DNA from: an uncultured Planctomycetales bacterium
GTDB lineage: Bacteria > 4484-113 > JAFGCY01
Direction of reading: 5' to 3'
DNA length: 64,000 nt
Assembly (NCBI GenBank): GCA_964609245.1
Contig: CAZSSB010000014.1
Coordinates: 769 to 64,768 of the forward strand
Of this stretch, positions 1-17,342 are shown piece by piece. The notes beneath the pieces were generated by a model. That model did no database searches. It had not been told where the DNA came from and worked only from the letters and a program-made list of their open reading frames with translations. The stretch's first letter is position 1. Each line of letters opens with the position of its first letter. A program made the position numbers and the translations under genes.

Positions 1-1360
1 TGCCTCGCTCACCCAGCCCACGCTGAACGGCTACCAGCGCCTCTTGGAGCTTCTCAAGAGCGATCTCATGCAGGCCCTGCTCGTCGTACACAACCCCGAT
101 GTTGTTGAGCAGATAGGCGCTGGCATCCTGCTGACCCTGCTCACGGGCCAGCTGCAGAGCCTGTTCGAAGTAGTCTATCGCCGCGTCGTACAGGCCGAGC
201 TCAGCGTAGATCACACCCATGCCGCCCAGCGCGCCGGCCTGGCCCCCCTGATCGCCCGCTGCTGCCATGACTCGCCGGCATCGCTCCAGGCACTCCAGTC
301 CCTCAGCGTACTCGCCCAGATACCAGTGGACACCGGCAATGCTGTATGCCAGGTCCCCCTCTCCGGACACATACTGCAACTCCTCCATGATGGTCAGGGA
401 CTGCCTGTAGTGCTTCATCGCTTCGGCGAACCAGCCCATGTCAGCACAGACGTCACCGATCCTCTTCAGCGCGTATGCTTCGCCGAAGCGGTCGCCCGGG
501 TCACGGAAGAGCCTGAGCGCCGTATCGAGGTGCACCCGTGCAACGGCGGGCCGGTCAAGCTGCCGATAGACCCCGCCAGCCCAGTAACGAGCGTATCCCT
601 CACCCGGCAGGGAACCAGCAGAGCCGTCCAGCACCGCCACGTATCGATCGAGGTACTCGAGAACCTGCCTGGCGTTGCCTGGTGAGGTCACATCTCCGGT
701 TTGGGAAGTAGCGCGGGAACCCAGAGCCAGGTCGCTTCCCCTGGCGATTGAGAGACTGCCGAGCTCAGGCTGATGGCGCCCGAATCCCTTCAGCGTGTCC
801 CCGCCCCTGCGCAGTTCATCGAGTTCGCGTGGGAAGACCAGAGGCTTCTCGTCCGTTGGCACGGCTTCCTCGTAACCGGACTCGAGTCCCAGCTTCATCT
901 GACAGAAACCCAGCAGGTCATAGCCTCTGCCCAACCACTCCCCCAGTCCGTGAGACTGCATCTCTTCGGTGAATGCGTCAAGGTACGTGATCGCCCTGAC
1001 GGTCTCTCCCGACTCATCCAGGTTGTCGCACAACTGGAAGAAGCAGTAAGCTGCACGTTCTGCATCTCCAAGGAGCAGGCTGGTGCAGCGGGCAAGAGCA
1101 TACGCGTCAAAGGCCGCTCCGAAGTCCACAGTCCCTGACTTGGCGTCGCCTCTGGCCAGGCTGTCGGCTTCTGCGACCAGCTGGTCAAGGAGCTCCCCAA
1201 GCTGCGTGTCGCTGAACTCCTGCCATTCCAGGGGCAGGTCCGCGCGGGTCATCGGCCTGCGATTCAGCAACACAGCATCCTGCGGTTGCCACTGATCACG
1301 GGGCACCGGCCCGGAACATGCCACCAGCGCAGAGCATCCGAGCAGGATCAGCGCAGTCAT
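1..1360 (-). CDS. TPR-repeat lipoprotein, 3' end beyond window edge; fourth paralog of the N-terminal/TPR part of the TPR-CHAT family
   Basis: Absent from the ORF track because it runs off the window. Manual minus-strand translation from ATG at 1360 gives MTALILLGCSALVACSGP (lipobox-like). Next comes RPMTRADLPLEWQEFSDTQLGELLDQLVAEAD, which matches the PVTRADLPDEWQQLSDDEL motif of the three CHAT proteins. TPR-like units follow (GALGGMGVIYAELGLYDAAIDYFEQALQLARE, LLNNIGVVYDEQGLHEIALEKLQEAL). The + ORF 44..685 is its antisense shadow. Confidence 0.75.
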   Translation of the reverse strand, partial: MTALILLGCSALVACSGPVPRDQWQPQDAVLLNRRPMTRADLPLEWQEFSDTQLGELLDQLVAEADSLARGDAKSGTVDFGAAFDAYALARCTSLLLGDAERAAYCFFQLCDNLDESGETVRAITYLDAFTEEMQSHGLGEWLGRGYDLLGFCQMKLGLESGYEEAVPTDEKPLVFPRELDELRRGGDTLKGFGRHQPELGSLSIARGSDLALGSRATSQTGDVTSPGNARQVLEYLDRYVAVLDGSAGSLPGEGYARYWAGGVYRQLDRPAVARVHLDTALRLFRDPGDRFGEAYALKRIGDVCADMGWFAEAMKHYRQSLTIMEELQYVSGEGDLAYSIAGVHWYLGEYAEGLECLERCRRVMAAAGDQGGQAGALGGMGVIYAELGLYDAAIDYFEQALQLAREQGQQDASAYLLNNIGVVYDEQGLHEIALEKLQEALVAVQRGLGERG

Positions 1361-1476
1361 TGCAGCCCTGAGGATGAGTCTGACCGGAGAGGATCCTGAT
1401 GCCGCGCGTTTACAGGGCCGGTAGCCCGGGCGCCGAAGTCCACACTTCACAGCTGATACGAGCGATCCCCGCATGC

Positions 1477-2493
1477 TTACTCAAGAGCCTGTGTATAGCG
1501 AAGCGGCCACTGTACATCCTCGGCCGCGCCCTCCTGCGGCTCGGGCAGGAGTCCCTGCTCCAGGTACAGCACGATGCCGTCTGCAACCGCCTCACTGATC
1601 TCACGCAAGACCTCTTCGCGCATCACATACTCGGAATCCCGAGCTGAACTCAGGAATGCCAGCTCCAGCAGTACAGCTGGCTGCACCGCATATACGAACC
1701 CGTAGATTGGCCTGTCGAAGCGACGGATGCCCAGGTCGGGCGTCTCCATGACCTCGCCGAGCTGCTGATGAATCGCCTCGGCCGCAGCCAGGCTGGATCG
1801 CCGAAGAGCGCCATCTTCGTCGACCCTGCTCTGGTCGTTGTACCAGGTGGAAAAGCCTCTCAACTCCGGGTCACTGCTGCCGTCGAAATGAACCCTCACA
1901 AACAGCTCCGCACCGTGCTGTGCTGCGAAATCCGCACGCATTCTGTTGTTCGCTTCCTGATCATGCCCCGCGTAATCGACGTCAAACCACGGATGCTCGT
2001 AGTCACGAGTGCTGTAGGTCGGCACACCGCGGCGACGCAGTGCAGCCATGATCCACATGCTGTAGTCAAGGGTCACTTCGTGTTCATGCACCGTCCTCCC
2101 ATCCAACTGAGCTGCTGAACCATGACCCGTGATCCTGAGGTTCACGTCACGTGTGCCATGTCCCGGGTCAATGACAACCACGGGATACATGCTCTCAGCC
2201 GGATTGTCGGGCATCGGCGAGATCGGCAGGATGCCCGTCACTCCCTCAGGCTGCAGCTGTGCTTCCTCCTCCCCGCCTGCAGTGCCTGGTGTCGCCTGGT
2301 CTGCACTCCTCCCAGTGGACGAACCTGCTGCACTGACCTCGTCTGGTTCCAGCTGCACCTGCTGAACGCGTGGCACCGTCGATGCCTGAACAGGCTGGTC
2401 GTCTTGCTCACTGGCTGCCTTCCGAACGCACCCGGAGCAGGTACCGAGCACCAGAAGCAGTCCCAACCCCAACACCGCGCCTGAGGAACTCAC
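1477..2493 (-). CDS. N-acetylmuramoyl-L-alanine amidase (Amidase_3 family) lipoprotein
   Basis: 338-aa ORF. The N-terminus GLGLLLVLGTCSGC is lipobox-like. Amidase_3 hallmarks are present: VVVIDPGHGTRD, HEHEVTLD, LFVRVHFDG, AVLLELAFLSS. GTG start at 2493 is preceded by GGGAGGAGAG and overlaps the upstream stop (GTGA). Confidence 0.85.
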   Translation of the reverse strand: MSSSGAVLGLGLLLVLGTCSGCVRKAASEQDDQPVQASTVPRVQQVQLEPDEVSAAGSSTGRSADQATPGTAGGEEEAQLQPEGVTGILPISPMPDNPAESMYPVVVIDPGHGTRDVNLRITGHGSAAQLDGRTVHEHEVTLDYSMWIMAALRRRGVPTYSTRDYEHPWFDVDYAGHDQEANNRMRADFAAQHGAELFVRVHFDGSSDPELRGFSTWYNDQSRVDEDGALRRSSLAAAEAIHQQLGEVMETPDLGIRRFDRPIYGFVYAVQPAVLLELAFLSSARDSEYVMREEVLREISEAVADGIVLYLEQGLLPEPQEGAAEDVQWPLRYTQALE

Positions 2494-4982
2494 CTTCTCT
2501 CCTCCCTGAGCCTCACTAGCAGATCGTAGTTGGCCCGCTCGAAGTCATTCAGCAGCTCCAGGTATGCCCGGCTGTCATCGTATGCGCCGTTGCTCGTTAC
2601 AGGATACAGCGGGTCTTCCTCGTACCAGGATTGCTCCTGGAAGTGCCGGCGCCACTTCTCAAAAGCGAATCCACGTCCATGACGCGCCAGTACTTCGTTG
2701 ACTGCCAGGGCTAGCTGGTCTGCCGTAAAGGACTCCAACTCGGACTCATCGTAGTAACGAGTGTGTGTGTCCAGGAAGAAGCCGCCTTCAGGCAGCGCTG
2801 CCGCAGACATTTCTTGGTACGCCGTCGCTTTCTCATCCTCTCCGAGCAGGTCGCAAAGCGAGCTCATATCAGCGAGTATGCGAGACTCTCGCTCGGCATC
2901 GGCAAGCTCACGACTTACCGTCAGCGCCTGCTCGAAATAGTCAAGTGCCTGGTCCGGTTCCCCCAGCGACACATGCGTTTGACCGATGCTGTGGAGCAGT
3001 TCACCTTCAGTGGCAAGGTCGCCAGTATCGCGACACTCGTCAAGCTGTTGCTGAAACTCCGTAAGCTCCTGACGGTAGGGCCGCAGCACTGCTGCTTGTT
3101 TCCTGACTGCCAGGACGATGGGCGCAGCCGACATAGCCCCCTCAACCGTCGGCGCGGCGGGCAACTGGTCGACACCGGTAGTTGAACCCAGCGTAGTCAT
3201 CTCAGCAACGAGGGCCTGATGCAGCGAGCCGAACGTCATCGTGCCATCCGCGCCGAAGGCGCTGTCCTTCAGGGTTTCAAGAAGGGCATACGTGAAAACC
3301 CCGTGCTCCAACGTGAAAACCCCGTCCTCCTGGGGGGGGACCTCGAAGCCGGGGCTGCCTGGGGCCGAGCCCAGGATAATCCCGATGCGCTTTTCATGGC
3401 CGGAGCGGTCATCACCAATCGTGTGGGTAGCTGAGGCACTCGAGCAGTCGCAGTCTAGTAACAGCACCAGGTTGCCGCATGCGGAATCGCGCACATCATC
3501 TATGATCTGTCCCAGACTGAGTGCGCGGGACTCCACCCGCGGGTCAAACTCGCCATCATAGGGAACCAGGCAATCTTCGCCGTCCAGGCTCAGCGCGTGA
3601 CCGGAGAAGAAGAACAGCACAGTGCCGTTGCCTGATTTCTTCAGGCCTTGCAGTGCATTGCGGATATTCAAGTGTGTCGCTTCGCTGCCAGTCAACAGGC
3701 TCACGCGATGAGCGAGAAGCCCACAGTCACGCACCAGAGCATCACGGACAGCGTGCGCATCGCTCTCAGCGTAGCGCAAATCCGGGGCGTACTCTGACTG
3801 GTAGTCGTTAATCCCAACAACAAGCGCCGAATTAGCTGGTTGAATGCACACTGAGGGATCCACCGTAACCTCGGTGGCCACCCCCGACGCATCGTTAACA
3901 GAACCTCCACTCGGCAAATCTCGCTTTGGCGGATGTGTGACTTCTCTCTCCCCCAGAACGATGGTCCCTGACAAGCCAGTCGGAATCACCCTCTCAGGTG
4001 TCTGCGAGTATCCCACCTGGAAGGACAGCTGCTTCATGCTCGTCAGGACAGCTTCGTAAAGGCTGTCGTAGGTGATCCTGCCCTTAGGGTCGACAGCCTT
4101 GCCGGCCATCGCACTGAGCAGGGCTTGTGTGAACAGGCCGTGATCCAGCTCAGGAGGTTCATGAGACAGCTCATTGAACTTCGTACCGAAGATGACCCCC
4201 ATTCCATGACCATCGCCATCCGTTTCGATCGAGCCCCAATCAGGCTCAACGAAACCTGTTTCCTGCTCCCCGCCCGAGCCTCTTGCCGTGGAGGCGATGT
4301 TTCCCCGGCAAGCGTCGATGAGCATAACCTGACGTTCGAATCCGCTGGCAGCCAGCAGGCGGTACACATCGTCGAGACAGATGTTGCGGTCCGCGTAGTC
4401 CGGATCCAGTTCGCCGTCGTAAGGGATGAGGTAGTCACGGCCGTTGAACACCTGACCGTGGCCCGAGAAGAAGAACACAACGGTTCCGGTGTTCAGGTCA
4501 CAGAGACCGTGCAGCGCATTGTGGATCCGCCTATATATTGCGTCTGGCCCCAGCAATGAAACAACCACGTCGGGATTGAACCCGCAGTCTTCCACCAGCG
4601 CGTTCTTCACCGCCTCGGCGTCGCCTTCCGCCTTCTCGAGATCACGTATTCCTTCGGAGTCGCGGTAGTTGATGCCTATGACAATGGCGGCGTTGTCGGG
4701 CTGCGGCTTGACTGTGTACTGGACGGCATCCCCCGATTCGGACGTCTCTGCAACGGTTGACGAGCGCTGAGCAGCAGGCTTCTGCTCCCCCTGGTCTGGC
4801 TTGTGGCACGCGGCCAGGCACAGGAACAGAGCCAGGAGCAGGCAGAGCGAGACGGCCAACCTACGCAACCGATGGACAGCTGCACATGTACTCGCGACTC
4901 CGCACCAGTCTCGCAGCTTCAGGACCGCGGCAGCGCCTGCAGCCAACGCATGTCCGACACTCATACCCCTGAACCTACCCAT
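2490..4982 (-). CDS. Lipoprotein with two tandem caspase-like (peptidase C14) domains, TPR region and C-terminal YARHG domain
   Basis: Domain 1: AIVIGINYRD...VVFFFSGHGQV...VMLIDACRGN. Domain 2: ALVVGINDYQ...VLFFFSGHALS...LVLLLDCDCSS. Both carry a His/Cys dyad in caspase-like context. A TPR-like segment follows (LHSIGQTHVSLGEPDQALDYFEQALTVSRE). The C-terminus NEVLARHGRGFAFEKWRRHFQEQSWY is YARHG-like. Start set at ATG 4982 (GAGGTGA RBS 4 nt upstream); the track ORF begins at 5018. The hydrophobic stretch ends in LFLCLAAC (lipobox). Confidence 0.8.
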   Translation of the reverse strand: MGRFRGMSVGHALAAGAAAVLKLRDWCGVASTCAAVHRLRRLAVSLCLLLALFLCLAACHKPDQGEQKPAAQRSSTVAETSESGDAVQYTVKPQPDNAAIVIGINYRDSEGIRDLEKAEGDAEAVKNALVEDCGFNPDVVVSLLGPDAIYRRIHNALHGLCDLNTGTVVFFFSGHGQVFNGRDYLIPYDGELDPDYADRNICLDDVYRLLAASGFERQVMLIDACRGNIASTARGSGGEQETGFVEPDWGSIETDGDGHGMGVIFGTKFNELSHEPPELDHGLFTQALLSAMAGKAVDPKGRITYDSLYEAVLTSMKQLSFQVGYSQTPERVIPTGLSGTIVLGEREVTHPPKRDLPSGGSVNDASGVATEVTVDPSVCIQPANSALVVGINDYQSEYAPDLRYAESDAHAVRDALVRDCGLLAHRVSLLTGSEATHLNIRNALQGLKKSGNGTVLFFFSGHALSLDGEDCLVPYDGEFDPRVESRALSLGQIIDDVRDSACGNLVLLLDCDCSSASATHTIGDDRSGHEKRIGIILGSAPGSPGFEVPPQEDGVFTLEHGVFTYALLETLKDSAFGADGTMTFGSLHQALVAEMTTLGSTTGVDQLPAAPTVEGAMSAAPIVLAVRKQAAVLRPYRQELTEFQQQLDECRDTGDLATEGELLHSIGQTHVSLGEPDQALDYFEQALTVSRELADAERESRILADMSSLCDLLGEDEKATAYQEMSAAALPEGGFFLDTHTRYYDESELESFTADQLALAVNEVLARHGRGFAFEKWRRHFQEQSWYEEDPLYPVTSNGAYDDSRAYLELLNDFERANYDLLVRLREERR

Positions 4983-5082
4983 ATCGTCACCTCTTATGGA
5001 TGCCACTCCAGCGAGCAATCCTTGACCAATTGCTGCGCAATCCCCTCGTGTTCAGGCATTGTACCGAACAACTGATCACCTG

Positions 5083-5211
5083 TTACAGGACAACTCCTCT
5101 GCCAGCACCTGTACTGGCAGCGGCAACAGCGAGCCCGGCGGCGCCCAGCAGAGCGACGACCACCAGGAAAACAACCCAGCTTCTGACTGCGATTCGGTCT
5201 TCAGCAACCAC
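5083..5211 (-). CDS. Possible 42-aa single-pass membrane peptide (below ORF-track size cutoff)
   Basis: GTG at 5211 is preceded by GGGAGG plus a 6-nt spacer (revcomp of 5212-5223). Translation: MVAEDRIAVRSWVVFLVVVALLGAAGLAVAAASTGAGRGVVL, then stop TAA at 5083-5085. It has one clear hydrophobic helix. It lies between the cyclase and caspase genes on the same strand. Confidence 0.4.
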   Translation of the reverse strand: MVAEDRIAVRSWVVFLVVVALLGAAGLAVAAASTGAGRGVVL

Positions 5212-5294
5212 TGTCTTCCTCCCATGCTGCGATCCGTGCAACGCTCGCACGGGGCAGCCATGATCCCGAGGGCGCAGCGCTCAGCGCCCCGGCC

Positions 5295-7145
5295 TCAGTC
5301 AAACGCGAAAAGCCTAGCCTGCGCGTGTCCTCGAATCGGCACCTCGCCCAGTTCACGCGCCGCAGTCGCAGTCTCGGCATCCAGCAGCGCCACCAGTTCC
5401 GCGGTCGCAACGATCGCCACGCCGCGCTGCTTACAGACGTCCTGCAGCCGCGAAGCGAGGTTTACTGAGTCCCCGATCACCGTGAAGTCCAGCTTGGCCC
5501 GGGAGCCGACGTTGCCGCCGACGATCTCGCCGTAGTGCAGGCCGACGCCGATGCTCAGGCTGGCCTGCCCCGTGTCCGGCCGCGGCAGCGCGCTCGCGGC
5601 CCGCACCATCTCGCGCGCGCAGGCCAGGCCGGCCGCCGCCGGATGCGGCAGCTCCTCCGGATAGCCGAACACCACCAGCGCGCCGTCGCCGATGAACTTG
5701 TCCACCCAGCCGCCATGGCGCGTGACGATCTCCGTCATCGCGTCGTGATAGCGGGTCAGAAACGCCACCACCTCGGCGGGAGGCAGTCCCTGAGTGAACG
5801 TCGTGAAGCCACGGATGTCGGCAAACATCACCACCGCCCGGCAGCGTTCACCCGCCAGCAGGCTCTCGCCGCGCTCCTCGACGATGCGCTGCAGCGCCCG
5901 CCGGCTGACATAGCGCCGGAAGTAGTCGGCGACGCGCCGGCGCTCGCGGTCGATCAGCGTGAACCGCACCACGCGCACCAGGCCTGAGCCGATGACCAGC
6001 ACCAGCAGCAACGCGCCGGGCGCCAGTCTGAGATCCGCCAGGAACGCCGCGTAGGAACCGGCGAGGATGCCTGCCGCCAGCACCAGATCCGTCGCGACGC
6101 TCAGCGGCGGCGCCAGGCGCAGCACCGCGATCGCCGACAACAGCAGGAGCAGCGCGGCCAGCAGGACCAGCGTCCAGCCCGAAATCGACTTCAGCTCCCG
6201 GCCCGTATACACCGTGTCCGCGACGTTGGCCAGCAGCTCCACGCCACTCATCCGCTGCCGGCGATCGCGGCCGGCATAGGGCGTGACAAAGATGTCGTCC
6301 GGCTGTTGCCACTTCCCGATGAAGACGGTCCTGCCCCGCCACTGGCTGCTGAGCTTCTCAAGCTCCTCGCCCTCGGCACTGAGGACATCCAGGTAGCTCA
6401 GGTGCGGATAGGTGTTCGGCGGGCCGGTGTAGTTGATGAACACCGACTCCGGCCCGGTGCTGTCCGCTTCGGCCAGCTCCAGTGTGCCGCGGCTGGCGTG
6501 GGTTGCTGCCAGACCGGGCAGCGACGGCAGGGCCGCCGGCGATCCGCCCTGCGCCGGAAGCAGAGTGCCGAACTCCCGCACCGCCTTGTCACCCGACTCC
6601 TCGGCGAACAGGTTGACGAATCCAAGGACCTCATCCCCGCCCGCGGGCTCGCGGAGTTCATCGCGTGGCAGCTGCAGCTCGCCCCCGCGAACGTAGCAGG
6701 CGAGAAACACCGGACAGTCGTACTCATACCGCGCCTCGGCGATCGCGGTGCCCATCGCGGCGAAGCTCTCGTATTCCAGGCGTCGGGCCAGCCGTTCCTG
6801 CTCGGTCTGAAGGAATCCCTCGCCATCGATCTCCGGAGCGAACATGTCCAGAGCAATGCCCCTGGCCCCCCCCTGCGCGAGCTTCCTGATCACCTCGGCG
6901 TGGTACCAGCCCCAGTAGAACGTAGCCAGTGGCAGCGCGCTGTGGGTGGCGTCATCCATGCCGACGACCACGAATGCGTCGCTGACAGCCCGCGGCCCGC
7001 GCAGCTCGAAAAACGTGCATTCGAGACGTGCATCCAGCCACTCCCCCGCCACGGAATGGCGCAGCCACGCGGTCGCTGCAGCCAGCACCAGCAGCACCAG
7101 CCAGATGAGGAGGAGCACGAGCGTTCTCAACCTGCTGCCACTCAT
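5295..7145 (-). CDS. CHASE2-sensor class III adenylate cyclase
   Basis: 616 aa. An N-terminal TM helix is followed by a ~300-aa CHASE2-like region (VVVGMDDATHSAL, GIALDMFAPE, LGFVNLFAEESGDKAVREF, TVFIGKWQQPDDIFVTPYAG...GVELLANV). Three TM helices follow, then the cyclase core (VVMFADIRGFTTFTQ, VDKFIGDGALVVF, GLHYGEIVGGNVGS, DFTVIGDSVNLASRLQ). ATG at 7145 overlaps the upstream stop (ATGA). Confidence 0.9.
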   Translation of the reverse strand: MSGSRLRTLVLLLIWLVLLVLAAATAWLRHSVAGEWLDARLECTFFELRGPRAVSDAFVVVGMDDATHSALPLATFYWGWYHAEVIRKLAQGGARGIALDMFAPEIDGEGFLQTEQERLARRLEYESFAAMGTAIAEARYEYDCPVFLACYVRGGELQLPRDELREPAGGDEVLGFVNLFAEESGDKAVREFGTLLPAQGGSPAALPSLPGLAATHASRGTLELAEADSTGPESVFINYTGPPNTYPHLSYLDVLSAEGEELEKLSSQWRGRTVFIGKWQQPDDIFVTPYAGRDRRQRMSGVELLANVADTVYTGRELKSISGWTLVLLAALLLLLSAIAVLRLAPPLSVATDLVLAAGILAGSYAAFLADLRLAPGALLLVLVIGSGLVRVVRFTLIDRERRRVADYFRRYVSRRALQRIVEERGESLLAGERCRAVVMFADIRGFTTFTQGLPPAEVVAFLTRYHDAMTEIVTRHGGWVDKFIGDGALVVFGYPEELPHPAAAGLACAREMVRAASALPRPDTGQASLSIGVGLHYGEIVGGNVGSRAKLDFTVIGDSVNLASRLQDVCKQRGVAIVATAELVALLDAETATAARELGEVPIRGHAQARLFAFD

Positions 7146-11100: not shown

Positions 11101-11211
11101 CGCCTCGTCGGCTTCCCACTCCGCCAGTGGAACGGCATACGCCGGCGCGGCCAGTGCCGCCGTCAGCAGCACGGCCAGCAGCATGGTGGCCGCGAACCCG
11201 CCTTTGCGCAT
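8113..11211 (-). CDS. Secreted TPR-CHAT protein 1 (10 TPR units + CHAT caspase-fold domain)
   Basis: Start re-set to ATG 11211 (AGGAG 10 nt upstream). The track's 25-aa extension reads through the 3' end of the upstream paralog. Signal peptide MRKGGFAATMLLAVLLTAALAAPAYA|VPLAEW. Ten 40-aa TPR units (xLNNIGxVYxxLGQYEEALEYYEQSLAIxREIGD). CHAT C-terminus with RVIHLATHGF (His) and ELVALSCCHTAEG (Cys). Confidence 0.9.
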   Translation of the reverse strand: MRKGGFAATMLLAVLLTAALAAPAYAVPLAEWEADEAKLLGYEPVTRADLPDEWQQLSDDELRQLMDEIYAEADEHYFADEYRQALPGFQHLIYLARTLGDTKHTGNCLNNIGLVYSGLGEYVESLTYYEQSLAICREIGDVSNEGTTLDNIGNVHRNLGQYKQALDYYEQFLAMKREIGDVAGEGIALNNIGSVYDSLGQYEVALDYHERSLAIRRVIGDVAEEAVTLNNIGCVYKNLGEYVEALSYYEQSLAIKREVGDVAGEGIALNNIGSVYDSLGQYEVALTYYEQSLDIFRALGHIRGEGTTLNNIGLVYTSLGQYEEALEYYEQSLAIRREIGDVASEGSTLNNIGLVHNDLGQYEEALEYFEQSLAIMREIGDVAAEGTALNNIGLVCDSLGQYEEALEYYEQSLAIKREIGDVAGEGATLNNIGSVYGCLGLYENALVFLEQSLATMREIGDVAVERNSLYSIGSVYRQSGWPEQAIEHYRGAFDIDMSQATQFTWESGMKGGLVDNLADTASLLASTQLLLHLDEDAFATVQSAKGVPLLQLLEQAQVQSDDPAVQEALNSYRDAQAALQKYRDDLYRLDEDDYEQRAYITARIEEYQAQANDAWDYIREHEPRLTEIIEVQGLSVEQVQDEIMQPGQVVLEYLVTDEEVILFCLPWEGELTVARILLPEPEARTSLGAGLVSAQDEDRSFDQWVSDQLRDLYGAGKEDSRQAGRELYELLVAPVADSIPAEAELIICPDRSLFLVPFEALVGPDDEYLLERHPLTYSTSATMLRYVKDAGGAAGALVAGVSFSGNEGGGTRSARDPLRAGLYGHRDFGPLPAVPMEARNVAALLGAEEPLLLVESQATEPALRESMPGCRVIHLATHGFLSGVPLLNGVVLYQQEEQEEEQEEEDAALDWGRDISGSDGFLRMSEVMGISLDGCELVALSCCHTAEGEANPGAGVMGMTQGFLYAGARSVLASLRGVHDDETRALMEQFYRNWQQEGMSKREALRQAKLWLLDEKGVGAAKWAPFVLYGLE
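8264..9034. repeat. 771-bp perfect direct repeat, copy A (partner 13747..14517)
   Basis: By-eye comparison of the two 3' regions at an offset of 5483 bp. Scattered mismatches occur in the first ~150 nt after the stops, and none between 8264 and 9034. The first mismatch is at 9035 (t versus g). Alternate-frame ORFs from the track are identical (8549..8857 = 14032..14340; 8595..8795 = 14078..14278). Confidence 0.85.
9690..10930. repeat. 120-bp-periodic coding tandem array (10 TPR units) inside TPR-CHAT 1
   Basis: The 40-aa unit repeats ten times. Some units are nearly identical at DNA level: 10354-10436 versus 10594-10676 is 83 bp with one mismatch. Boundaries are approximate. Confidence 0.8.
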
Positions 11212-11227
11212 CGTCAACATTCTCCTC

Positions 11228-13582
11228 TCACTCCAGGCCGTAGAGCACAAACGGTGCCCATTCGGCCGCGCCCACACCCTTCTCATCGAGCAGCCACAGC
11301 TTGGCCTGGCGCAGGGCCTCGCGCTTGCTCATCCCTTCCTGCCGCCAGTTGCGGTAGAAACGCTCCATCAGCGCCCGCGTCTCATCGTCGTGCACCCCAC
11401 GCAGCGAGGCCAGCACGCTGCGTGCCCCGGCCACCAGGAAGCCCTGGGTCAGGCCCATCGTCCCGGCCCCGGGTCTGATCTCCCCCAGGGCGCTGTGTGA
11501 GCAGGACAGCACCACCAGTTCGCAGCCGTCCAGCCGAATCCCCATCACCTCGCTCATCCTCAGAAAGCCGTCACTGCCCGACAAGCCCGCAGCCCGATCG
11601 GGCGCGTCCGCGTCCTGCTCCTCTTCCTGATACAGCACGATCCCGCTGAGCAGCGGTACCTCGGACAGAAAGCTGTGCGTCGCCAGGTGAATCACGCGCT
11701 TGCCCGGCATGTTCTCTCGCACTGCCATCTCCGTGGCCTGGCTCTCCAGCAGCAGCAGCGCCGTGCCAAGCAGCGCCGCCACTGCTCTGGCCTCCGGCAC
11801 CACCGCCGCCAGCGGAGCAAAGTCGCTGTGGGTGTATTGCCCGCCCGGCAGCGGATCGTGGGCGCCGCGCGTGCTGGTGGTTTCACCGCCGCCGAAGCTC
11901 ACCGCCACAACCAGTGCTCCGGTTACGTCGCCCCCGGGCCTGATGTAGCCAAGCATGGTGGCGCTGGTGGAATAACTCAGCGCGTGCCGCTCCAGCAGGT
12001 ACTCCTCTTCGGGGCCCACCAGGGCCTCGAACGGCACCAGGAACAGGCTGCGGTCCGGGCAGATGATCAGCTCCGCTCCCGCCGGAATGCTATCCGCGAC
12101 CGGCTCCACCAGCAGCTCGTAAAGAGCGCGCCCGGCCTGCCGGCTGTCCGACATCGGATGGCCATAGAGATCCACCAGCTGGCCCTCAATCCAATCGTCG
12201 AAGCTCCGGTCCTCGTCCTCCGGTTCACTATTCGGTGTGACGCGCCAGCCGCCGCCCGCCTCGGGCTCCGGCAGGGCCATGCGCACTGCCGTCAGCTCCC
12301 CCTCCCATGGCAGGCAGAACAGGATGATCTCCTCGTCTGTGACCAGGTACTCCAGCACCACCTGGCCCGGCTGAAGGATCTCTGCCTGCACCTGCTCTGC
12401 GCTAAGGCCCCGAACCTCGATGATCTCGGTGAGTCGCGGTGCATGCTCGCGGATATAGTCCCAGGCATCGTTCGCCTGCGCCTGATACTCCTCGAGCCGG
12501 GCGTTGATGTATGCCCGCTGCTCCTCGTCATCGTCGTCCAGCCTGTACTGGTCGTCGCGATACTTCTGCATGGCTGCCTGGGCGTCGCGGTAGCTGTTTA
12601 GCGCTTCCTGCACGGCGGGATCATCTACCTGTGCTTGCGCTTGCCCCAGTAGCTGGAGCAAAGGCACGCCTTTGGCGGACTGGATGGTGTTGAAGGCGCC
12701 CTCGAGTAGTCCCAGTTCGAACTGCACACCGGCCAGTCGCGAGGCAGCCACGGCAAGATCCGCTACGGGATCGCTCCTCCGATCCTCCTCCCACGGGACC
12801 TGCATGGCTGACGCGTGTGCCAGCTCGAACGCTTGTGCATAGGGCTCAAGCGCCTCCTCATACTGCCCCATAACTTGATGGGCGTCGCCGATGCTGCTCA
12901 GCACGTCCCTGTCCACGCCCCACCCGATCTCACGGCTGACGGCCAGGGACTGCTCGTAGTACTCCAGCGCCTGCCGATGTTGCCCCATCGCGGAATAGAC
13001 GTCACCGATGCTCCTCAGCGTGGCCCACACCCACATGCTGTCAGTCTCATGGCCAACAGCCAGGGACTGCTGGTAGTAGCCCAGCGCCTGCTCGTGCTGC
13101 CCCATCTCGAAGAGGACCATGCCGATATCCTGAAGCACATACTCCTCCAGCTCGTCGGCTTCGTTCTGCCGGCACACAATCAGGGCCCGCTCGTAGTACG
13201 CGAGCGCCTTGGCGTCCTGGCCAAGCCTCTCATAGGCGAACCCGATGCAGCGCAAGGCCTGCGTGAGTCCATACTCCTCCCCTGTCACCCGCCAGATGTA
13301 TGCATTCGTCAGGTCTTGGACAATTCCCTCGCTGACCTCCTCAAGCAGCTCGGAGTTGTCCGAGCCGTAGCAGCCCCCGTCGTGTACAGCAAGCCCAGCC
13401 AGCTCGTCGTCGCTGAGCTGCTGCCACTCGTCGGGCAGATCGGCGCGGGTGACGGGCTCCTCGCCCAGCAGCTTCGCCTCGTCCGCCTGCCACTCCGCCA
13501 GTGGCACGGCAGATGCCCAGGTGCACCACGAGACGACGATGAAAGCCAGCGTCATCGCAAACCTTACGTACCTGCTGTACAT
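11228..13582 (-). CDS. Secreted TPR-CHAT protein 2 (about 4 TPR units + CHAT domain)
   Basis: Start re-set to ATG 13582 (GGGAGGAAGAC upstream). Signal peptide MYSRYVRFAMTLAFIVVSWCTWASA|VPLAEW. It shares the mature N-terminal motif of the other two paralogs. CHAT motifs are RVIHLATHSF and ELVVLSCSHSALG. Confidence 0.9.
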   Translation of the reverse strand: MYSRYVRFAMTLAFIVVSWCTWASAVPLAEWQADEAKLLGEEPVTRADLPDEWQQLSDDELAGLAVHDGGCYGSDNSELLEEVSEGIVQDLTNAYIWRVTGEEYGLTQALRCIGFAYERLGQDAKALAYYERALIVCRQNEADELEEYVLQDIGMVLFEMGQHEQALGYYQQSLAVGHETDSMWVWATLRSIGDVYSAMGQHRQALEYYEQSLAVSREIGWGVDRDVLSSIGDAHQVMGQYEEALEPYAQAFELAHASAMQVPWEEDRRSDPVADLAVAASRLAGVQFELGLLEGAFNTIQSAKGVPLLQLLGQAQAQVDDPAVQEALNSYRDAQAAMQKYRDDQYRLDDDDEEQRAYINARLEEYQAQANDAWDYIREHAPRLTEIIEVRGLSAEQVQAEILQPGQVVLEYLVTDEEIILFCLPWEGELTAVRMALPEPEAGGGWRVTPNSEPEDEDRSFDDWIEGQLVDLYGHPMSDSRQAGRALYELLVEPVADSIPAGAELIICPDRSLFLVPFEALVGPEEEYLLERHALSYSTSATMLGYIRPGGDVTGALVVAVSFGGGETTSTRGAHDPLPGGQYTHSDFAPLAAVVPEARAVAALLGTALLLLESQATEMAVRENMPGKRVIHLATHSFLSEVPLLSGIVLYQEEEQDADAPDRAAGLSGSDGFLRMSEVMGIRLDGCELVVLSCSHSALGEIRPGAGTMGLTQGFLVAGARSVLASLRGVHDDETRALMERFYRNWRQEGMSKREALRQAKLWLLDEKGVGAAEWAPFVLYGLE

Positions 13583-13595
13583 GTCTTCCTCCCAG

Positions 13596-16500
13596 TTACT
13601 CCAGGCCGTAGAGCACGAACGGTGCCCATTTGGCCGCGCCCACACCTTTCTCGCCTAGCATCCACAGCTTGGCCTGGCGCAGCGCCTCGCGCTTGCTCAG
13701 TCCTTCCTGTTGCCAGTTGCGGTAGAACTGCTCCATCAGCGCCCGCGTCTCATCGTCGTGCACCCCCCGCAGCGAGGCCAGCACGCTGCGCGCCCCGGCA
13801 TACAGAAAGCCCTGCGTCATCCCCATCACGCCCGCGCCGGGATTGGCTTCGCCTTCCGCCGTGTGGCAGCAGGACAGCGCCACCAGCTCGCAGCCGTCCA
13901 GCGAGATCCCCATCACCTCGCTCATCCTGAGAAAGCCGTCACTGCCCGAGATGTCCCGGCCCCAGTCGAGGGCCGCGTCCTCTTCCTCCTGCTCCTCTTC
14001 CTGCTCCTCCTGCTGATACAGCACCACCCCGTTGAGCAGCGGCACTCCGGACAGGAAACCGTGGGTCGCCAGGTGGATCACCCGGCAGCCCGGCATGCTC
14101 TCTCGGAGCGCCGGCTCCGTGGCCTGGCTCTCCACCAGCAGCAGCGGCTCCTCCGCGCCAAGCAGCGCCGCCACGTTGCGGGCCTCCATCGGCACCGCCG
14201 GCAGCGGGCCGAAGTCCCGGTGGCCGTACAGCCCGGCCCGCAGCGGATCGCGGGCACTGCGCGTGCCGCCGCCTTCATTGCCGCTGAAGCTCACCCCCGC
14301 CACCAGTGCACCCGCGGCGCCGCCGGCATCCTTTACGTAGCGCAGCATGGTGGCGCTGGTGGAGTATGTGAGCGGGTGGCGCTCCAGCAGGTACTCATCA
14401 TCGGGGCCCACCAGCGCCTCGAACGGCACCAGGAACAGGCTGCGGTCCGGGCAGATGATCAGCTCCGCCTCCGCCGGAATACTGTCCGCCACCGGCGCCA
14501 CCAGCAGCTCGTAGAGCGCGCGCCCCGCCTGCCGGCTGGCGGCCCGTTGCTTTCCGTACAACTCGACCAGCTGATCAGTGACCCACTGATCGAAGCTCAG
14601 GTCTTCATCCTCCTGCTCACTACTCGGTGTGACGCGCCAGCTGCTGCCCGCCTCCGCCTCGGGCTCCGGCAGGGCTGTGCGCACTGCCGTCAGCTCGCCC
14701 TCCCAGGGCAGGCAGAAGATCAGCAGGCTCCCCGGATCATCATCCGTCAGACCATCCACCTGCATGTATTCCAGCACCACCTGGCCCGGCTGCAGGATCT
14801 CCGCCTGCACCTGCTCTGCGCTCAGCCCCTGGACCTCGATGATCTCGGTGAGGCGCGGCTCATGCTCACGGATGTAGTCCCAGGCATCGTTCGCCTGAGC
14901 TGTGTACTCCTCCAGCCGCGCTTCGATGTCTGCGCGGTGCTCCTCGTCGTCATCCTCCAGCTTGCAGAGATCCTCGCGGCATTTCTGGAGTGCAGCCTGG
15001 GCGTCGCGGTAGCTGTCTAGCGCCTGCTGCACCGCGGGATCGTCCACCTGCACCTCGGCCTGCATCAGTAACTGGAGCAGCGGTACGCCCTTGCCTGATT
15101 GCACCGTTGTGAAAGCGTCGTCGAGTAGTCCCAGCTCGAAGAGGACGAGGGTGAGACGCGATGCTGTCCAACTCAGATCCCGCACCAAGCCGCTCTTCAG
15201 CCCTGATTCCCAAGTGAATTCCGTGGCTCTGGATGACGCTGTTTCAGCCGCTCTTCCGTAGTACTTGGCGGCTTCCGCATACTGGTCTTCGGACTCGTGC
15301 ACTATGCCTATGCCCTGCAATGCCCCCAACTCAGCATCCAGATTCCCCACTTCCTGATTCAGCGCCAGGCACTGCTCGTAGCAGTCTACTGCTTTCGCTC
15401 GCTGCTCGAGTTGTCTGTAGATTGAGCCCATACATTGGAGCCCGTTGGTCTCGATAAACTGGTCTCCGATCTCCCTCGCAATCGCAGTGGATTGCTCGTA
15501 TTGCTTTAACGCCTCTTCCGACATCTCCAGACCATGATAGGCACTGGCCATGTTGTGCAGTGTTCTGGCTTCAAGGTCCTGGTCTCCAACCTCTCGCGAC
15601 AATCCCAGAGACTGCTCGTAGTACTTGAGCGCCTCCTCGTGTTGCCCCAGGCCGTCGTAGACAATGCCGATGTTGTTGAGTGCCTGGTTCTCCTCGTGGA
15701 CCAAGCCCTGTTCCTCAAACGCTGTCAGGGCGTTTCGCAGATAGGCTAATCCCGTTTCTTGTTGCTCAAGACTGCTGTATACGATTCCGAGGTTCGCCAT
15801 TGCACCGGCGACACCAGCAGCATCACCGCGCGTGCGATAGATAGCCAGAACTCGTTCATGCAGGGCCAGTGCCTTCTCGTTGAGTCCCTGATGCGTGCAG
15901 CAGCATCCGAAGTCACTCAGCAAGGCGAGCTCCGTGGGTGGGCTGTCAGGCGCAATGTCGGCTAAGTCGCGTATGCTCAGCGCTTCTTCCAGATACTCCG
16001 CAGCACGTCTGTACTTGCCGAGTCTACCGTAGACAATTCCCAATACGTGCAAAGCAAGGAGCGTACCTCGTGCGTCCTCAGTCTCACGTGCGAGCTCAAG
16101 CGAGCGCTCCAGGTACTCTATCGCCAATTCGTTGTTGCGCAGATCATCGTTCAAGGACCCGAGGTTGTGCAAAGCAATGACCTGCCCCTGCGCATCGCCA
16201 GTCTCGTTGAACTTCTCGTTGGCAAGCCCGTAGTATGCCAATGCGTCTTCTGTTCTTCCCAGTTCCCTGGCGATTTCGGCCATATTCCCCAGCACGTATC
16301 CGTGCCGCTGCGCATTGTCTGCTTTTTCACAGGCATCCAGTGCCTGCTCCAGATACTCAAGTGCTTCGTCGTACTCCTCCAATCGCTTGTAGGTCTTGCC
16401 GATGTTGAGGAGGACGAGAGATTCCGTGCTCGGATCACCCGCTTCTCGTGACACCGCCAGAGCTTCCACATACGCGTCGATTGCGCTCTGGTCGGACCCC

Positions 16501-17342
16501 AGCCTCTCCCGAAGCACGCCGATGTAGTTCAGTGTGTCTGCCTCGCCTTGTCTGTCACCCAGGTCACGGTACAGGTCAAGCACCTGCTCGTAGTATGGCG
16601 CCGCTTGCTCGTAGTCCTCCAGCTGATGCCAGTAGAGAGCGCCGATGTCCCTGAGCGATTGGATGACACCCCGGGTATCCTCGATCTCCCTTCTCTTATC
16701 CAGGGCTCGCCCGTAGAAGAGCAGGGCCTCGTCGTAGTTCCCCATCAGCCGGTGTGCCCGACCGATGTTATTCAGTGTCATTCCATAATTGACGTCCTCT
16801 CCGACTTCGGCGTAGATGGCCAGGGCCTGCTCGTAGTACTCAATCGCCTGCTCGTAGTCCTCGTAGTAGTTATTGAAGACCACGCCGATGTTCTGCAGCG
16901 CTACTCCCTCGCGCCGTCGGTCCCCGATTTCGCGCCCGATGGCCAAGGACTGCTCGTAGTACGTGAGCGCCCGCTCATACTGACCCAGGTTGTCGCAGAC
17001 AAGGCCGATGGCATTGAGACCGGTGCCAACCTCTTTCAAGTCATCGAGAACCCACGCAAGGTAGACATGTCGCTGCAATCCGGGCAGCGCCTGCTGGTCT
17101 TCACCAGCATCGCGGAGTTCATCAGCCTCCGCGTAGATCTCGTCCATCAGCTGCCGGAGCTCGTCATCGCTGAGCTGCTGCCACTCGTCCGGCAGGTCGG
17201 CGCGGGTGACGGGCTCTTCGCCCAGCAGCTTCGCCTCGTCCGCCTCCCACTCCGCCAGCGGGACGGCCTGCGCCGGCGCGGCCAGCGCCGCCGTAAGTAC
17301 AGCAGCCAGCAGCAGGGCGGCTGCGAACCCGCCTATGCGCAT
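13596..17342 (-). CDS. Secreted TPR-CHAT protein 3 (about 15 TPR units + CHAT domain)
   Basis: Start re-set to ATG 17342 (GAGGAGAG upstream). Signal peptide MRIGGFAAALLLAAVLTAALAAPAQA|VPLAEW. About 15 TPR units. The C-terminal ~260 aa are identical to TPR-CHAT 1, including HLATHGF and ALSCCHTAEG. Confidence 0.9.
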   Translation of the reverse strand: MRIGGFAAALLLAAVLTAALAAPAQAVPLAEWEADEAKLLGEEPVTRADLPDEWQQLSDDELRQLMDEIYAEADELRDAGEDQQALPGLQRHVYLAWVLDDLKEVGTGLNAIGLVCDNLGQYERALTYYEQSLAIGREIGDRRREGVALQNIGVVFNNYYEDYEQAIEYYEQALAIYAEVGEDVNYGMTLNNIGRAHRLMGNYDEALLFYGRALDKRREIEDTRGVIQSLRDIGALYWHQLEDYEQAAPYYEQVLDLYRDLGDRQGEADTLNYIGVLRERLGSDQSAIDAYVEALAVSREAGDPSTESLVLLNIGKTYKRLEEYDEALEYLEQALDACEKADNAQRHGYVLGNMAEIARELGRTEDALAYYGLANEKFNETGDAQGQVIALHNLGSLNDDLRNNELAIEYLERSLELARETEDARGTLLALHVLGIVYGRLGKYRRAAEYLEEALSIRDLADIAPDSPPTELALLSDFGCCCTHQGLNEKALALHERVLAIYRTRGDAAGVAGAMANLGIVYSSLEQQETGLAYLRNALTAFEEQGLVHEENQALNNIGIVYDGLGQHEEALKYYEQSLGLSREVGDQDLEARTLHNMASAYHGLEMSEEALKQYEQSTAIAREIGDQFIETNGLQCMGSIYRQLEQRAKAVDCYEQCLALNQEVGNLDAELGALQGIGIVHESEDQYAEAAKYYGRAAETASSRATEFTWESGLKSGLVRDLSWTASRLTLVLFELGLLDDAFTTVQSGKGVPLLQLLMQAEVQVDDPAVQQALDSYRDAQAALQKCREDLCKLEDDDEEHRADIEARLEEYTAQANDAWDYIREHEPRLTEIIEVQGLSAEQVQAEILQPGQVVLEYMQVDGLTDDDPGSLLIFCLPWEGELTAVRTALPEPEAEAGSSWRVTPSSEQEDEDLSFDQWVTDQLVELYGKQRAASRQAGRALYELLVAPVADSIPAEAELIICPDRSLFLVPFEALVGPDDEYLLERHPLTYSTSATMLRYVKDAGGAAGALVAGVSFSGNEGGGTRSARDPLRAGLYGHRDFGPLPAVPMEARNVAALLGAEEPLLLVESQATEPALRESMPGCRVIHLATHGFLSGVPLLNGVVLYQQEEQEEEQEEEDAALDWGRDISGSDGFLRMSEVMGISLDGCELVALSCCHTAEGEANPGAGVMGMTQGFLYAGARSVLASLRGVHDDETRALMEQFYRNWQQEGLSKREALRQAKLWMLGEKGVGAAKWAPFVLYGLE
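13747..14517. repeat. 771-bp perfect direct repeat, copy B (partner 8264..9034)
   Basis: See copy A. Confidence 0.85.

What the first reader, a model, noticed from the sequence alone, without database searches (positions are those of the whole stretch)
1..17342. Co-directional 17-kb array of exported caspase-fold proteases wired to a CHASE2 adenylate cyclase, a DUF928-like protein and a peptidoglycan amidase
Seen in sequence: nine consecutive minus-strand genes with very short junctions. The gaps are 13 nt and 16 nt between the CHAT genes and 23 nt to the next gene. An ATGA overlap leads into the cyclase, and a GTGA overlap joins the caspase and amidase genes. Gene order is TPR-CHAT x3, DUF928-like exported protein, CHASE2/class III cyclase, a possible 42-aa TM peptide, tandem-C14-TPR-YARHG lipoprotein, Amidase_3 lipoprotein, and a TPR lipoprotein paralog. 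Every protein except the cyclase carries a Sec or lipoprotein signal, and the cyclase exposes its CHASE2 domain outside the membrane. All five caspase-fold domains retain a His/Cys dyad (HLATHG/SCCHT in CHAT; SGHG/DACRG and SGHA/DCDCS in the C14 pair). Established knowledge: CHAT and C14 are caspase-superfamily cysteine proteases. The ligand of CHASE2 sensors is unknown. YARHG is an extracytoplasmic module often fused to peptidases and kinases. Inference: this looks like one extracytoplasmic proteolytic sensing or execution module. Variable TPR receptors would gate CHAT proteases, the signal would pass through CHASE2 to cAMP, and the caspase lipoprotein plus amidase would act on the envelope (autolysis, programmed death, differentiation or defence). 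I recall loose CHAT/CHASE2/DUF928 gene neighbourhoods in cyanobacteria, without functional characterisation. I know of no described system with this full composition.
Basis: partly seen in the sequence, partly recalled or inferred. Interest (0 to 1): 0.85.

Follow-up and report, generated by a model that had tools for sequence, protein, structure and literature searches.

The report
Exported CHAT proteases beside a CHASE2 cyclase
An uncultured bacterium encodes four exported caspase-like (TPR-CHAT) proteases around a small exported partner protein and a membrane CHASE2 adenylate cyclase; this three-part core recurs in other bacteria and suggests that proteolysis outside the cell is converted into a cAMP signal.

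Summary
The genes, junctions, domain calls, export signals and His/Cys dyads are real. Two labels are wrong. The "DUF928-like" 315-aa protein matches no Pfam or NCBIfam model. It belongs to a rare family of tandem Ig/FN3-like domains plus a helical tail, whose closest known analogue is MtxA of magnetotactic bacteria (also followed by a CHASE2 cyclase). The last "TPR lipoprotein" is the 5' part of a fourth TPR-CHAT gene.

Only a three-gene core is conserved elsewhere: ORF315-family protein, translationally coupled CHASE2 cyclase, and signal-peptide TPR-CHAT (six distinct loci, 29-39% identity). In three further loci the same ORF315-family protein carries a cytoplasmic tail and a membrane helix. 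There it lies between a divergent ECF sigma-like gene and a TPR-CHAT gene, with no CHASE2. Cyanobacterial plasmids carry an analogous CHASE2/DUF928/TPR-CHAT set.

The tandem-caspase-YARHG lipoprotein and the amidase occur with this core only here. They have lower GC3 and follow a 312-nt spacer, so they are probably a lineage-specific insertion.

Best model (inferred, about 0.45): periplasmic TPR-CHAT acts on the ORF315-family protein, and the result is read out by CHASE2 as cAMP. This is a new variant of an uncharacterised kind.

The parts
13596..17342 (-). TPR-CHAT 1 (1248 aa). Sec signal MRIGGFAAALLLAAVLTAALAAPAQA|VPLAEW, conserved N-terminal motif, a 633-aa TPR array, linker, then a CHAT domain with HLATHG...LSCCH.
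   Evidence: (CHAT 1.8e-60)
11228..13582 (-). TPR-CHAT 2 (784 aa). Signal ...CTWASA|VPLAEW, a short 186-aa TPR array, and a CHAT domain with HLATHS...LSCSH.
   Evidence: (CHAT 4e-60)
8113..11211 (-). TPR-CHAT 3 (1032 aa). Signal ...APAYA|VPLAEW. Nine tandem 120-nt TPR units lie at 9664-10923. The 3' end is 97-100% identical to CHAT1 at DNA level over the stretches compared.
   Evidence: (CHAT 2e-60)
7142..8089 (-). ORF315. Exported or membrane-anchored protein of a rare family: N-terminal hydrophobic helix, two Ig/FN3-like beta-sandwiches, and a C-terminal four-helix region. It is the invariant partner of the TPR-CHAT genes and is translationally coupled (ATGA) to the cyclase.
5295..7145 (-). 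CHASE2 / class III adenylate cyclase (616 aa). TM1, periplasmic CHASE2 (residues 29-337), a TM cluster (about 317-399), and a cytoplasmic cyclase domain with D443, K483, D487, D559, N562 and R566 intact.
5083..5211 (-). Possible 42-aa hydrophobic peptide ORF (GTG start, GGGAGGA six nt upstream) inside the 312-nt spacer. Unverified.
   Evidence: Not called on L001-L006.
2490..4982 (-). Tandem Peptidase_C14 (x2) - TPR - YARHG lipoprotein (830 aa from the ATG with an AGAGG site). It has an RR-containing n-region, an h-region and the lipobox LAAC|H. Probably a lineage-specific addition.
1477..2493 (-). Amidase_3 N-acetylmuramoyl-L-alanine amidase (338 aa) with an N-terminal hydrophobic, lipoprotein-like signal. 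It overlaps the C14 gene by GTGA.
   Evidence: (3e-26)
1..1360 (-). 5' part of a fourth TPR-CHAT gene (lipobox signal, same N-terminal motif). The gene runs off the window. A same-species contig extends it to 792 aa, colinear with CHAT3 up to the start of the CHAT domain.

Best explanation
The core is a three-part signalling device that works outside the cytoplasm.

Shown:
- Exported TPR-CHAT cysteine proteases with intact His/Cys dyads. Here there are four paralogs with constant ends and divergent TPR arrays.
- An exported or membrane-anchored tandem Ig/FN3-like protein (ORF315 family).
- A CHASE2 receptor whose cytoplasmic class III cyclase domain keeps all catalytic and adenine-specifying residues.
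- These three are co-encoded across lineages.

Inferred:
- The TPR arrays bind an extracellular or periplasmic cue and license the CHAT domain.
- CHAT cleaves or captures the ORF315-family protein.
- The changed state of that protein is read by the CHASE2 ectodomain and alters cAMP synthesis.

The inference rests on a second wiring found in other bacteria. There the same ORF315-family protein has a short cytoplasmic tail and a TM helix, and it sits between a divergent ECF sigma-like gene and a TPR-CHAT gene. That is the layout of an anti-sigma factor released by a periplasmic site-1 protease, as proposed for the fused TPR-CHAT anti-sigma DdvA of Myxococcus xanthus.

The tandem-caspase-YARHG lipoprotein and the Amidase_3 lipoprotein lie between the cyclase and the fourth CHAT gene. 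They are most likely a later insertion. They may or may not use the same signal.
For: - Domain calls and dyads.
- Signal peptide followed by a conserved motif (VPLAEW..AKLLG..PVTRADLP.EWQ.LSD.EL) in TPR-CHATs of the window, L007, L010, L013 and L095.
- ORF315 family is rare, 15 hits in 1.8 billion representatives, about 12 of them full-length relatives.
- Its relatives sit directly before a CHASE2 gene with a start/stop overlap in the window, L007, L095, L011, L096 and L110. A TPR-CHAT follows in all three loci long enough to show it.
- Wiring B in L010, L013/L014 and L107/L108. The sigma-like protein matches TIGR02937 over its whole length at E 1.3e-7 and 3.6e-4. The ORF315-like protein has a TM helix at residues about 41-70.
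- Weaker ORF315-family relatives lie directly after CHASE2 cyclases in five betaproteobacterial loci (E 2e-16 to 3e-6).
- The ORF315 model (pLDDT 84) has MtxA as its second Foldseek hit (4z29, E 9.6e-5, aligned over the whole target). mtxA is followed by a CHASE2 adenylate cyclase gene.
- Cyanobacterial plasmids: CHASE2 receptor then DUF928 in 5 of 5 loci; TPR-CHAT adjacent in 2, and CHAT fused to CHASE2 in 2.
- Cyclase residues intact.
- DdvA precedent: PMC11506125.
Against: - No experiment or interaction model supports cleavage of ORF315 or its binding to CHASE2.
- The L007 homologue has a degenerate cyclase domain, so the output is not always cAMP.
- Betaproteobacterial CHASE2/ORF315-like pairs lack CHAT, so CHAT is not required for the pair.
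- An mtxA deletion had no phenotype (PMC4439547).
- The sigma-like protein scores below the TIGR02937 cutoff.
- The anti-sigma role of the roughly 40-residue cytoplasmic tail is assumed.
- Signal peptides were judged by eye and hydropathy only.
Confidence: 0.45

Rival explanations
1. The flow runs the other way. The exported TPR-CHAT proteases are effectors (surface remodelling or attack on other cells). ORF315 is their inhibitor, chaperone or immunity partner. The CHASE2 cyclase only senses conditions and sets expression through cAMP.
For: Four paralogs with variable TPR arrays and homogenised constant parts resemble an effector repertoire. Cyanobacterial TPR-CHAT neighbours carry POTRA domains or sit beside a TpsB transporter, which points to surface display. 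The region has lower GC3 than the rest of the window and abuts a tRNA-Leu gene.
Against: No secretion system or cAMP-receptor gene lies in the cluster. The ORF315-to-CHASE2 translational coupling is conserved. The ORF315-family protein also appears as a TM protein next to an ECF sigma-like gene, which fits a transducer better than an immunity protein.
Confidence: 0.2
2. All nine genes form one module in which CHAT sensing drives cAMP, and the caspase-YARHG lipoprotein plus amidase execute envelope autolysis, death or differentiation.
For: All genes are on the same strand. C14 and amidase are nested between the cyclase and the fourth TPR-CHAT gene, with a GTGA overlap and a 116-nt gap. All products carry export signals. 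Both C14 domains keep His and a Cys at or next to the catalytic position.
Against: The C14 protein has no full-length homologue; the best hits cover at most 48% of it at no more than 35% identity. No C14 or amidase lies near the core in L095, L107 or L013, nor near any of 80 CHASE2-cyclase loci. GC3 is 0.68 against 0.81-0.85. A 312-nt spacer holds the only sigma-70-like match in the 19.6 kb scanned, although one match is fewer than the 2.8 expected by chance.
Confidence: 0.17
3. It is an anti-phage or conflict system, either DdvA-like (envelope sensing of phage) or Pycsar-like (a cyclase making a nucleotide alarm).
For: DdvA shows that a periplasmic TPR-CHAT can control a defence regulon. The cyclase matches PADLOC PycC models (best E 1.8e-24) and the C14 protein matches a PADLOC caspase model. 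The second C14 domain scores 136.8 bits on the EACC1-associated caspase model.
Against: The PycC matches are to the generic class III fold. The cyclase keeps the adenine-specifying Lys/Asp pair, and no Pycsar effector is present. The EACC1-caspase score is below its cutoff of 140, and no EACC1 partner was found. No known defence genes flank the cluster.
Confidence: 0.13
4. The adjacency is chance and the genes are unrelated.
For: The distant CHASE2 cyclases in the 80 genome loci retrieved have no CHAT neighbour.
Against: The core trio recurs in independent loci at 29-39% identity with conserved order and overlapping stop/start codons.
Confidence: 0.03

Closest known systems
MtxA plus CHASE2 adenylate cyclase operon of magnetotactic bacteria (MGR_0208; PDB 4Z29; PMC4439547)
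   Same: A signal-peptide protein of about 313 aa with an N-terminal domain, an Ig-like beta-sandwich and a small helical domain, encoded immediately before a CHASE2 adenylate cyclase. 4Z29 is the second-best Foldseek hit of the ORF315 model.
   Different: No sequence similarity is detectable. TM-scores are low (0.23 on the query, 0.38 on the target). The paper mentions no CHAT protease in that cluster. The MtxA deletion had no phenotype.
Cyanobacterial CHASE2 / DUF928 / TPR-CHAT neighbourhoods (for example Calothrix sp. 336/3 and Planktothrix agardhii plasmids, Nostoc punctiforme pNPUN01)
   Same: A CHASE2 receptor gene directly followed by a small signal-peptide protein (beta-rich core plus helical tail), with a TPR-CHAT gene adjacent or CHAT fused to CHASE2.
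   Different: The small protein is DUF928, not detectably homologous to ORF315 (hhalign probability 3.6%). The CHASE2 proteins carry other domains instead of a cyclase (CHAT, AAA_35 or none). The CHAT proteins use POTRA or TpsB rather than a plain Sec signal. The neighbourhood is uncharacterised; only one paper in the library mentions DUF928.
DdvA-DdvS of Myxococcus xanthus (anti-sigma factor with a periplasmic TPR-CHAT; PMC11506125)
   Same: A periplasmic TPR-CHAT with a His/Cys dyad serves as the sensing end of a transmembrane signalling device. Wiring B of the ORF315 family (ECF sigma-like, TM protein, TPR-CHAT) looks like a split version of it.
   Different: In DdvA the TPR-CHAT is fused to the TM helix and a zinc-binding anti-sigma domain. 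Here the CHAT proteins are separate secreted proteins and the output in the window is a CHASE2 cyclase.
CHASE2 adenylate cyclases CyaD1/CyaD2 of Sinorhizobium meliloti
   Same: A CHASE2 ectodomain controls a class III cyclase, and deleting CHASE2 makes CyaD1 constitutive (PMC5498481).
   Different: They respond to an unidentified plant signal. No CHAT or ORF315-like partner is described. Plasmid hits to S. meliloti cover only the cyclase domain.
Csx29 (TPR-CHAT of type III-E CRISPR Craspase) and separase
   Same: TPR array followed by a CHAT caspase-fold protease, with activity gated by a bound partner.
   Different: Those are cytoplasmic and gated by RNA-guided Cas7-11 or securin. There are no CRISPR genes here. 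The structural comparison failed because the CHAT2 model had pLDDT 51.

Membership tests
CHAT (PF12770) caspase-fold protease | Match to the family profile above the gathering score | tested here: met
   204-205 bits against a cutoff of 24 for the three complete genes
CHAT (PF12770) caspase-fold protease | Catalytic His and Cys present | tested here: met
   H of HLATH(G/S) and C of LSC(C/S)H are invariant in seven aligned CHAT domains
TPR-CHAT of separase/craspase/DdvA type | Superhelical TPR scaffold packed on the CHAT domain (3D architecture) | tested here: inconclusive
   Pfam shows TPR N-terminal to CHAT. The AF2 model of CHAT2 had pLDDT 51 and was not searched.
DdvA-like anti-sigma factor | Cytoplasmic anti-sigma domain and TM helix fused to the periplasmic TPR-CHAT, with an adjacent ECF sigma | tested here: not met
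   The window CHAT proteins start with cleavable signal peptides, and no sigma gene lies in 1-19.5 kb
CHASE2 sensor (PF05226) | Profile match flanked by TM helices, placing the domain outside the membrane | tested here: met
   96.4 bits against a cutoff of 26.3, residues 29-337. Hydrophobic segments at 1-32 and 317-399.
Class III adenylate cyclase | Two metal-binding Asp, adenine-specifying Lys/Asp, and transition-state Asn/Arg | tested here: met
   D443, D487, K483, D559, N562 and R566 are present. Pfam score is 74.1 bits against 21.9. Enzyme activity was not tested.
DUF928 (PF06051) | Match to the family profile | tested here: not met
   No hit at E<=10 for ORF315 or 12 relatives, while a true member scores 214.9 bits. 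hhalign of the family against five DUF928 proteins: probability 3.6%, E 0.012.
DUF928 (PF06051) | Small exported protein encoded next to a CHASE2 receptor | tested here: met
   ORF315 overlaps the cyclase start. DUF928 follows CHASE2 in 5 of 5 plasmid loci.
MtxA-like periplasmic protein | Signal peptide, Ig-like sandwich followed by a small helical domain, gene next to a CHASE2 cyclase | tested here: met
   AF2 model with pLDDT 84. 4z29 is Foldseek hit 2, E 9.6e-5 over 172 columns. Synteny from PMC4439547.
MtxA-like periplasmic protein | Detectable sequence homology to MtxA | tested here: not met
   The family profile found no MtxA chain in the PDB at E<=10
Peptidase_C14 (caspase/metacaspase) | Profile match and His/Cys dyad | tested here: met
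   106.7 bits against 21.4, two domains. Domain 1 has SGHG/DACRG. Domain 2 has SGHA/DCDCS, with the Cys aligned only after a one-residue gap.
EACC1-associated caspase (NF047832) | Score above the curated cutoff and an EACC1 partner | tested here: not met
   136.8 bits against a cutoff of 140. No EACC1 model hit among the cluster proteins.
YARHG (PF13308) | Profile match above the gathering score | tested here: met
   34.5 bits against 27, residues 750-803 of the 842-aa ORF
Amidase_3 (PF01520) | Profile match, plus zinc ligands and catalytic Glu | tested here: met
   92.9 bits against 27. GHG, HEHE, RVHFDG and LLELAF motifs were read directly in the translation. Residue roles come from general knowledge of the family and were not tested.
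Pycsar cyclase (PycC) | Pyrimidine cyclase with an adjacent cNMP-activated effector | tested here: not met
   PADLOC PycC hits cover only the generic cyclase fold. Adenine-specifying residues are kept. No effector gene is present.

The most novel reading that the evidence does not exclude
CHASE2 domains, whose ligands have been unknown since 2003, may sense small exported partner proteins rather than small molecules. Candidates are the ORF315 family, MtxA and DUF928. Exported TPR-CHAT proteases would turn an external cue into a cut or captured partner. One proteolytic front end could then feed interchangeable outputs: cAMP here, an ECF sigma factor elsewhere, and CHAT, AAA or TIR-linked outputs in cyanobacteria. 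In this genome the inserted caspase-YARHG lipoprotein and amidase would link that front end to cell-wall cleavage.
Probability: 0.25. Interest if true: 0.8.

Novelty: new variant of a known kind. Interest (0 to 1): 0.6.

Why it matters
CHASE2 is a widespread bacterial sensor domain with no known ligand. Bacterial CHAT and caspase-fold proteases are mostly studied inside the cell. This locus and its relatives give a concrete, testable route: exported TPR-CHAT, then a small Ig-like partner, then CHASE2, then cAMP. They also tie together three observations that had stood apart: MtxA in magnetotactic bacteria, DUF928 clusters in cyanobacteria, and the DdvA anti-sigma factor. If the model holds, it would supply the first input mechanism for CHASE2 and a new class of proteolytic signalling across the membrane.

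Tried and rejected
- DUF928 assignment of ORF315: rejected by Pfam at E<=10 on 13 family members. hhalign was not significant.
- Word-indexed homologue search for ORF315 found only itself. The full HMMER scan was needed.
- Alignment-based locus searches failed twice for lack of a conserved stretch. Narrower alignments worked.
- Sequence searches of the PDB with whole proteins returned only TPR matches. The ORF315 family profile found nothing meaningful.
- The AF2 model of CHAT2 from a five-sequence alignment was too poor (pLDDT 51) to search or to place the N-terminal motif.
- Taxonomy could not be established.
- Rfam found only a tRNA in 1-20 kb. No repeat of the tRNA 3' end marks an island boundary within the window.
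- The promoter/terminator scan was at or below chance level.
- Plasmid search with the cyclase hit only cyclase domains.
- Pycsar and EACC1 readings were considered and not adopted.

Full report
**What is in the sequence.** Window 1-17342 is filled by eight long minus-strand ORFs.
- 13 nt between CHAT1 and CHAT2
- 16 nt between CHAT2 and CHAT3 (start at 11211)
- 23 nt between CHAT3 and the 315-aa ORF
- an ATGA overlap into the cyclase
- a 312-nt spacer
- a GTGA overlap between the C14 and amidase genes
- 116 nt to the last gene

Pfam confirms most domain calls. There are three TPR+CHAT proteins (E about 1e-60). There is also CHASE2 (2.8e-27) with Guanylate_cyc (1.4e-20), two Peptidase_C14 stretches with TPR_12 and YARHG, and Amidase_3. 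The His and Cys of the CHAT dyad are invariant across seven aligned domains. The two C14 domains are paralogs at 37% identity. Domain 2 keeps the His, and its Cys aligns only after a one-residue gap. The cyclase keeps D443, K483, D487, D559, N562 and R566, the set expected of an active adenylate cyclase.

N-terminal signals are visible on all products except the cyclase. All three complete CHAT proteins would be cleaved just before VPLAEW. The C14 protein has an RR-containing n-region and the lipobox LAAC, whichever start is used. I could not run SignalP, so export rests on hydropathy and motif reading.

**Two corrections.**
1. The 315-aa protein is not demonstrably DUF928.
   - It has no Pfam or NCBIfam hit.
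   - Twelve relatives also lack any DUF928 hit at E<=10.
   - A genuine DUF928 protein scores 215 bits.
   - Profile-profile comparison with five DUF928 proteins gives probability 3.6%.
2. The "TPR lipoprotein paralog" is the start of a fourth TPR-CHAT.
   - A same-species contig extends it to 792 aa.
   - That extension is colinear with CHAT3 residues 30-716, up to where the CHAT domain begins (E 7e-146).
   - The metagenome contigs of this organism break at the near-identical CHAT domains.

The order is therefore CHAT1-CHAT2-CHAT3-ORF315-cyclase-[C14, amidase]-CHAT4.

**The paralogs.** Across the four CHAT proteins, the linker+CHAT region is 63-86% identical. The first 75 residues are about 39-91% identical (91% between CHAT1 and CHAT3). 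The TPR arrays are 28-47% identical and range from 186 to 633 aa. CHAT3 carries nine tandem 120-nt TPR units. This is a pattern of constant ends and a variable sensor.

**What ORF315 is.** A word-indexed search found only itself. A full HMMER scan of 1.8 billion representatives found 15 hits, about 12 of them full-length relatives. The AF2 model (pLDDT 84) has these parts:
- an N-terminal helix
- two beta-sandwiches (residues 37-146 and 168-247)
- a four-helix tail (250-313)

Foldseek returns generic tandem FN3/Ig proteins. The second hit is the MtxA C-terminal domain (4z29), aligned over its whole length. MtxA is a signal-peptide protein of about 313 aa with no known homologues. It has an Ig-like domain and a small helical domain, and its gene is followed by a CHASE2 adenylate cyclase (PMC4439547). 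Sequence similarity to MtxA is not detectable. The resemblance is therefore architectural and syntenic only.

**Conservation of the neighbourhood.**

| Layout | Loci | Notes |
|---|---|---|
| A: ORF315-like, then CHASE2 with overlapping stop/start | window, L007, L095, L011, L096, L110 | 29-39% identity to ORF315. A signal-peptide TPR-CHAT follows in all three loci long enough to show it |
| B: ECF sigma-like, then ORF315-like with about 40 cytoplasmic residues and a TM helix, then TPR-CHAT | L010, L013/L014, L107/L108 | No CHASE2. The sigma-like protein matches TIGR02937 end to end at E 1.3e-7 and 3.6e-4, below the cutoff |
| C: CHASE2 cyclase, then a weaker ORF315-family relative | five betaproteobacterial loci | E 2e-16 to 3e-6. 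No CHAT |

- TPR-CHATs of layouts A and B share the post-signal motif seen in the window.
- The other distant CHASE2 cyclases in the 80 genome loci retrieved have no CHAT, C14, amidase or ORF315 neighbour.
The CHASE2 receptor is followed by DUF928 in 5 of 5 loci. TPR-CHAT is adjacent in two of them, with POTRA domains or a TpsB gene. CHAT is fused to CHASE2 in two others.
- Caspase-CHASE2 fusions have been noted before (PMC2853523, PMC8195603).

**What is not conserved.** The tandem-C14-TPR-YARHG protein has no full-length homologue. Neither it nor an amidase lies near the core in any other locus. Its GC3 is 0.68, against 0.81-0.85 for ORF315, the cyclase and CHAT2/3. It follows the only long spacer in the cluster. 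Its position between the cyclase and CHAT4 is compatible with an insertion into an ORF315-CHASE2-CHAT unit, because CHAT follows the cyclase directly in L007 and L095. A functional link is possible but unsupported.

**Mechanism.**
- Shown: co-encoding, export signals, intact catalytic residues, and two alternative wirings that share the ORF315 family and TPR-CHAT.
- Inferred: TPR-CHAT acts on the ORF315-family protein, and the outcome is transmitted either by CHASE2 to cAMP or by the protein's own TM and tail to an ECF sigma-like factor.
- Closest experimental precedent: DdvA, a periplasmic TPR-CHAT fused to an anti-sigma domain. For DdvA, CHAT-mediated cleavage followed by RseP action has been proposed (PMC11506125).
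- Caveats: L007 has a dead cyclase domain. The betaproteobacterial pairs lack CHAT. The mtxA mutant had no phenotype.

**Verdict.**
- The core is a new variant (cyclase output, ORF315-family partner, Sec-exported multi-paralog CHAT) of a recurring, uncharacterised CHASE2 / small exported protein / CHAT theme.
- The organism could not be named.

Noticed in passing
window 19508-19593 (-): tRNA-Leu(GAG) lies at the upstream edge of the lower-GC3 block that holds the cluster (genes at 1-19447 have GC3 0.68-0.85, against 0.86-0.93 for the three downstream genes measured). This may be a genomic-island boundary. No repeat of the tRNA 3' end occurs in the window, and no integrase was seen.
   Followed up: partly
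window 17691-18431 and 18554-19447 (-): Two paralogous signal-peptide proteins (246 and 297 aa; 75% DNA identity over 300 nt) lie between the tRNA and CHAT1. Neither has a Pfam or PADLOC hit, and NCBIfam gives only one insignificant match (E 0.063).
   Followed up: partly
window 9664-10923; 8115-8414 vs 13598-13897; 8510-8663 vs 13993-14146: Nine tandem 120-nt TPR-coding repeats lie in CHAT3 at about 73-89% identity. The 3' ends of CHAT1 and CHAT3 are 97-100% identical over the stretches compared, which suggests recent duplication or gene conversion. This explains why the metagenome contigs break at the CHAT domains.
   Followed up: partly
L007 3546-5405: The CHASE2 protein of this related trio has a degenerate cyclase domain (metal Asp, Lys, Asn and Arg all lost). 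It may be a pseudo-enzyme scaffold.
   Followed up: partly
L026, L034, L036, L048, L051 (betaproteobacterial MAGs): CHASE2 adenylate cyclases are directly followed by one or two proteins of about 280-330 aa that match the ORF315-family profile over both beta-sandwiches (E 2e-16 to 3e-6). No CHAT gene is nearby.
   Followed up: partly
L008 11768-12799 and L009 11759-12913: A conserved gene without any Pfam hit (50% identity over 191 aa) lies convergent to distant CHASE2 cyclases in two unrelated contigs. It may be another kind of CHASE2 partner.
   Followed up: no
L101 (Planktothrix agardhii plasmid p1) and L100 (Calothrix sp. 336/3 plasmid): In Planktothrix the order is AAA_35-CHASE2 receptor, DUF928, TPR-CHAT, TpsB (ShlB/FhaC). 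In Calothrix a TIR gene precedes CHASE2, and the TPR-CHAT protein carries POTRA domains.
   Followed up: partly
window 19626-38107: A polysaccharide biosynthesis cluster: Wzx-like flippase, GFO/IDH/MocA oxidoreductase, DegT aminotransferase, GNVR protein, Wzy_C, three GT4 glycosyltransferases and asparagine-synthase-like genes.
   Followed up: no
window 28025-31267 (+): A 1080-aa protein with PKD domains and a PQQ/BamB-like beta-propeller. Probably exported.
   Followed up: no
window 4868-4982 (-): The called ATG start of the C14 gene has an AGAGG site and gives a 37-residue n-region containing RR before the lipoprotein h-region. A TTG at 4868 would give a canonical short lipoprotein signal (MRRLAVSLCLLLALFLCLAAC). 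Tat export is possible.
   Followed up: partly
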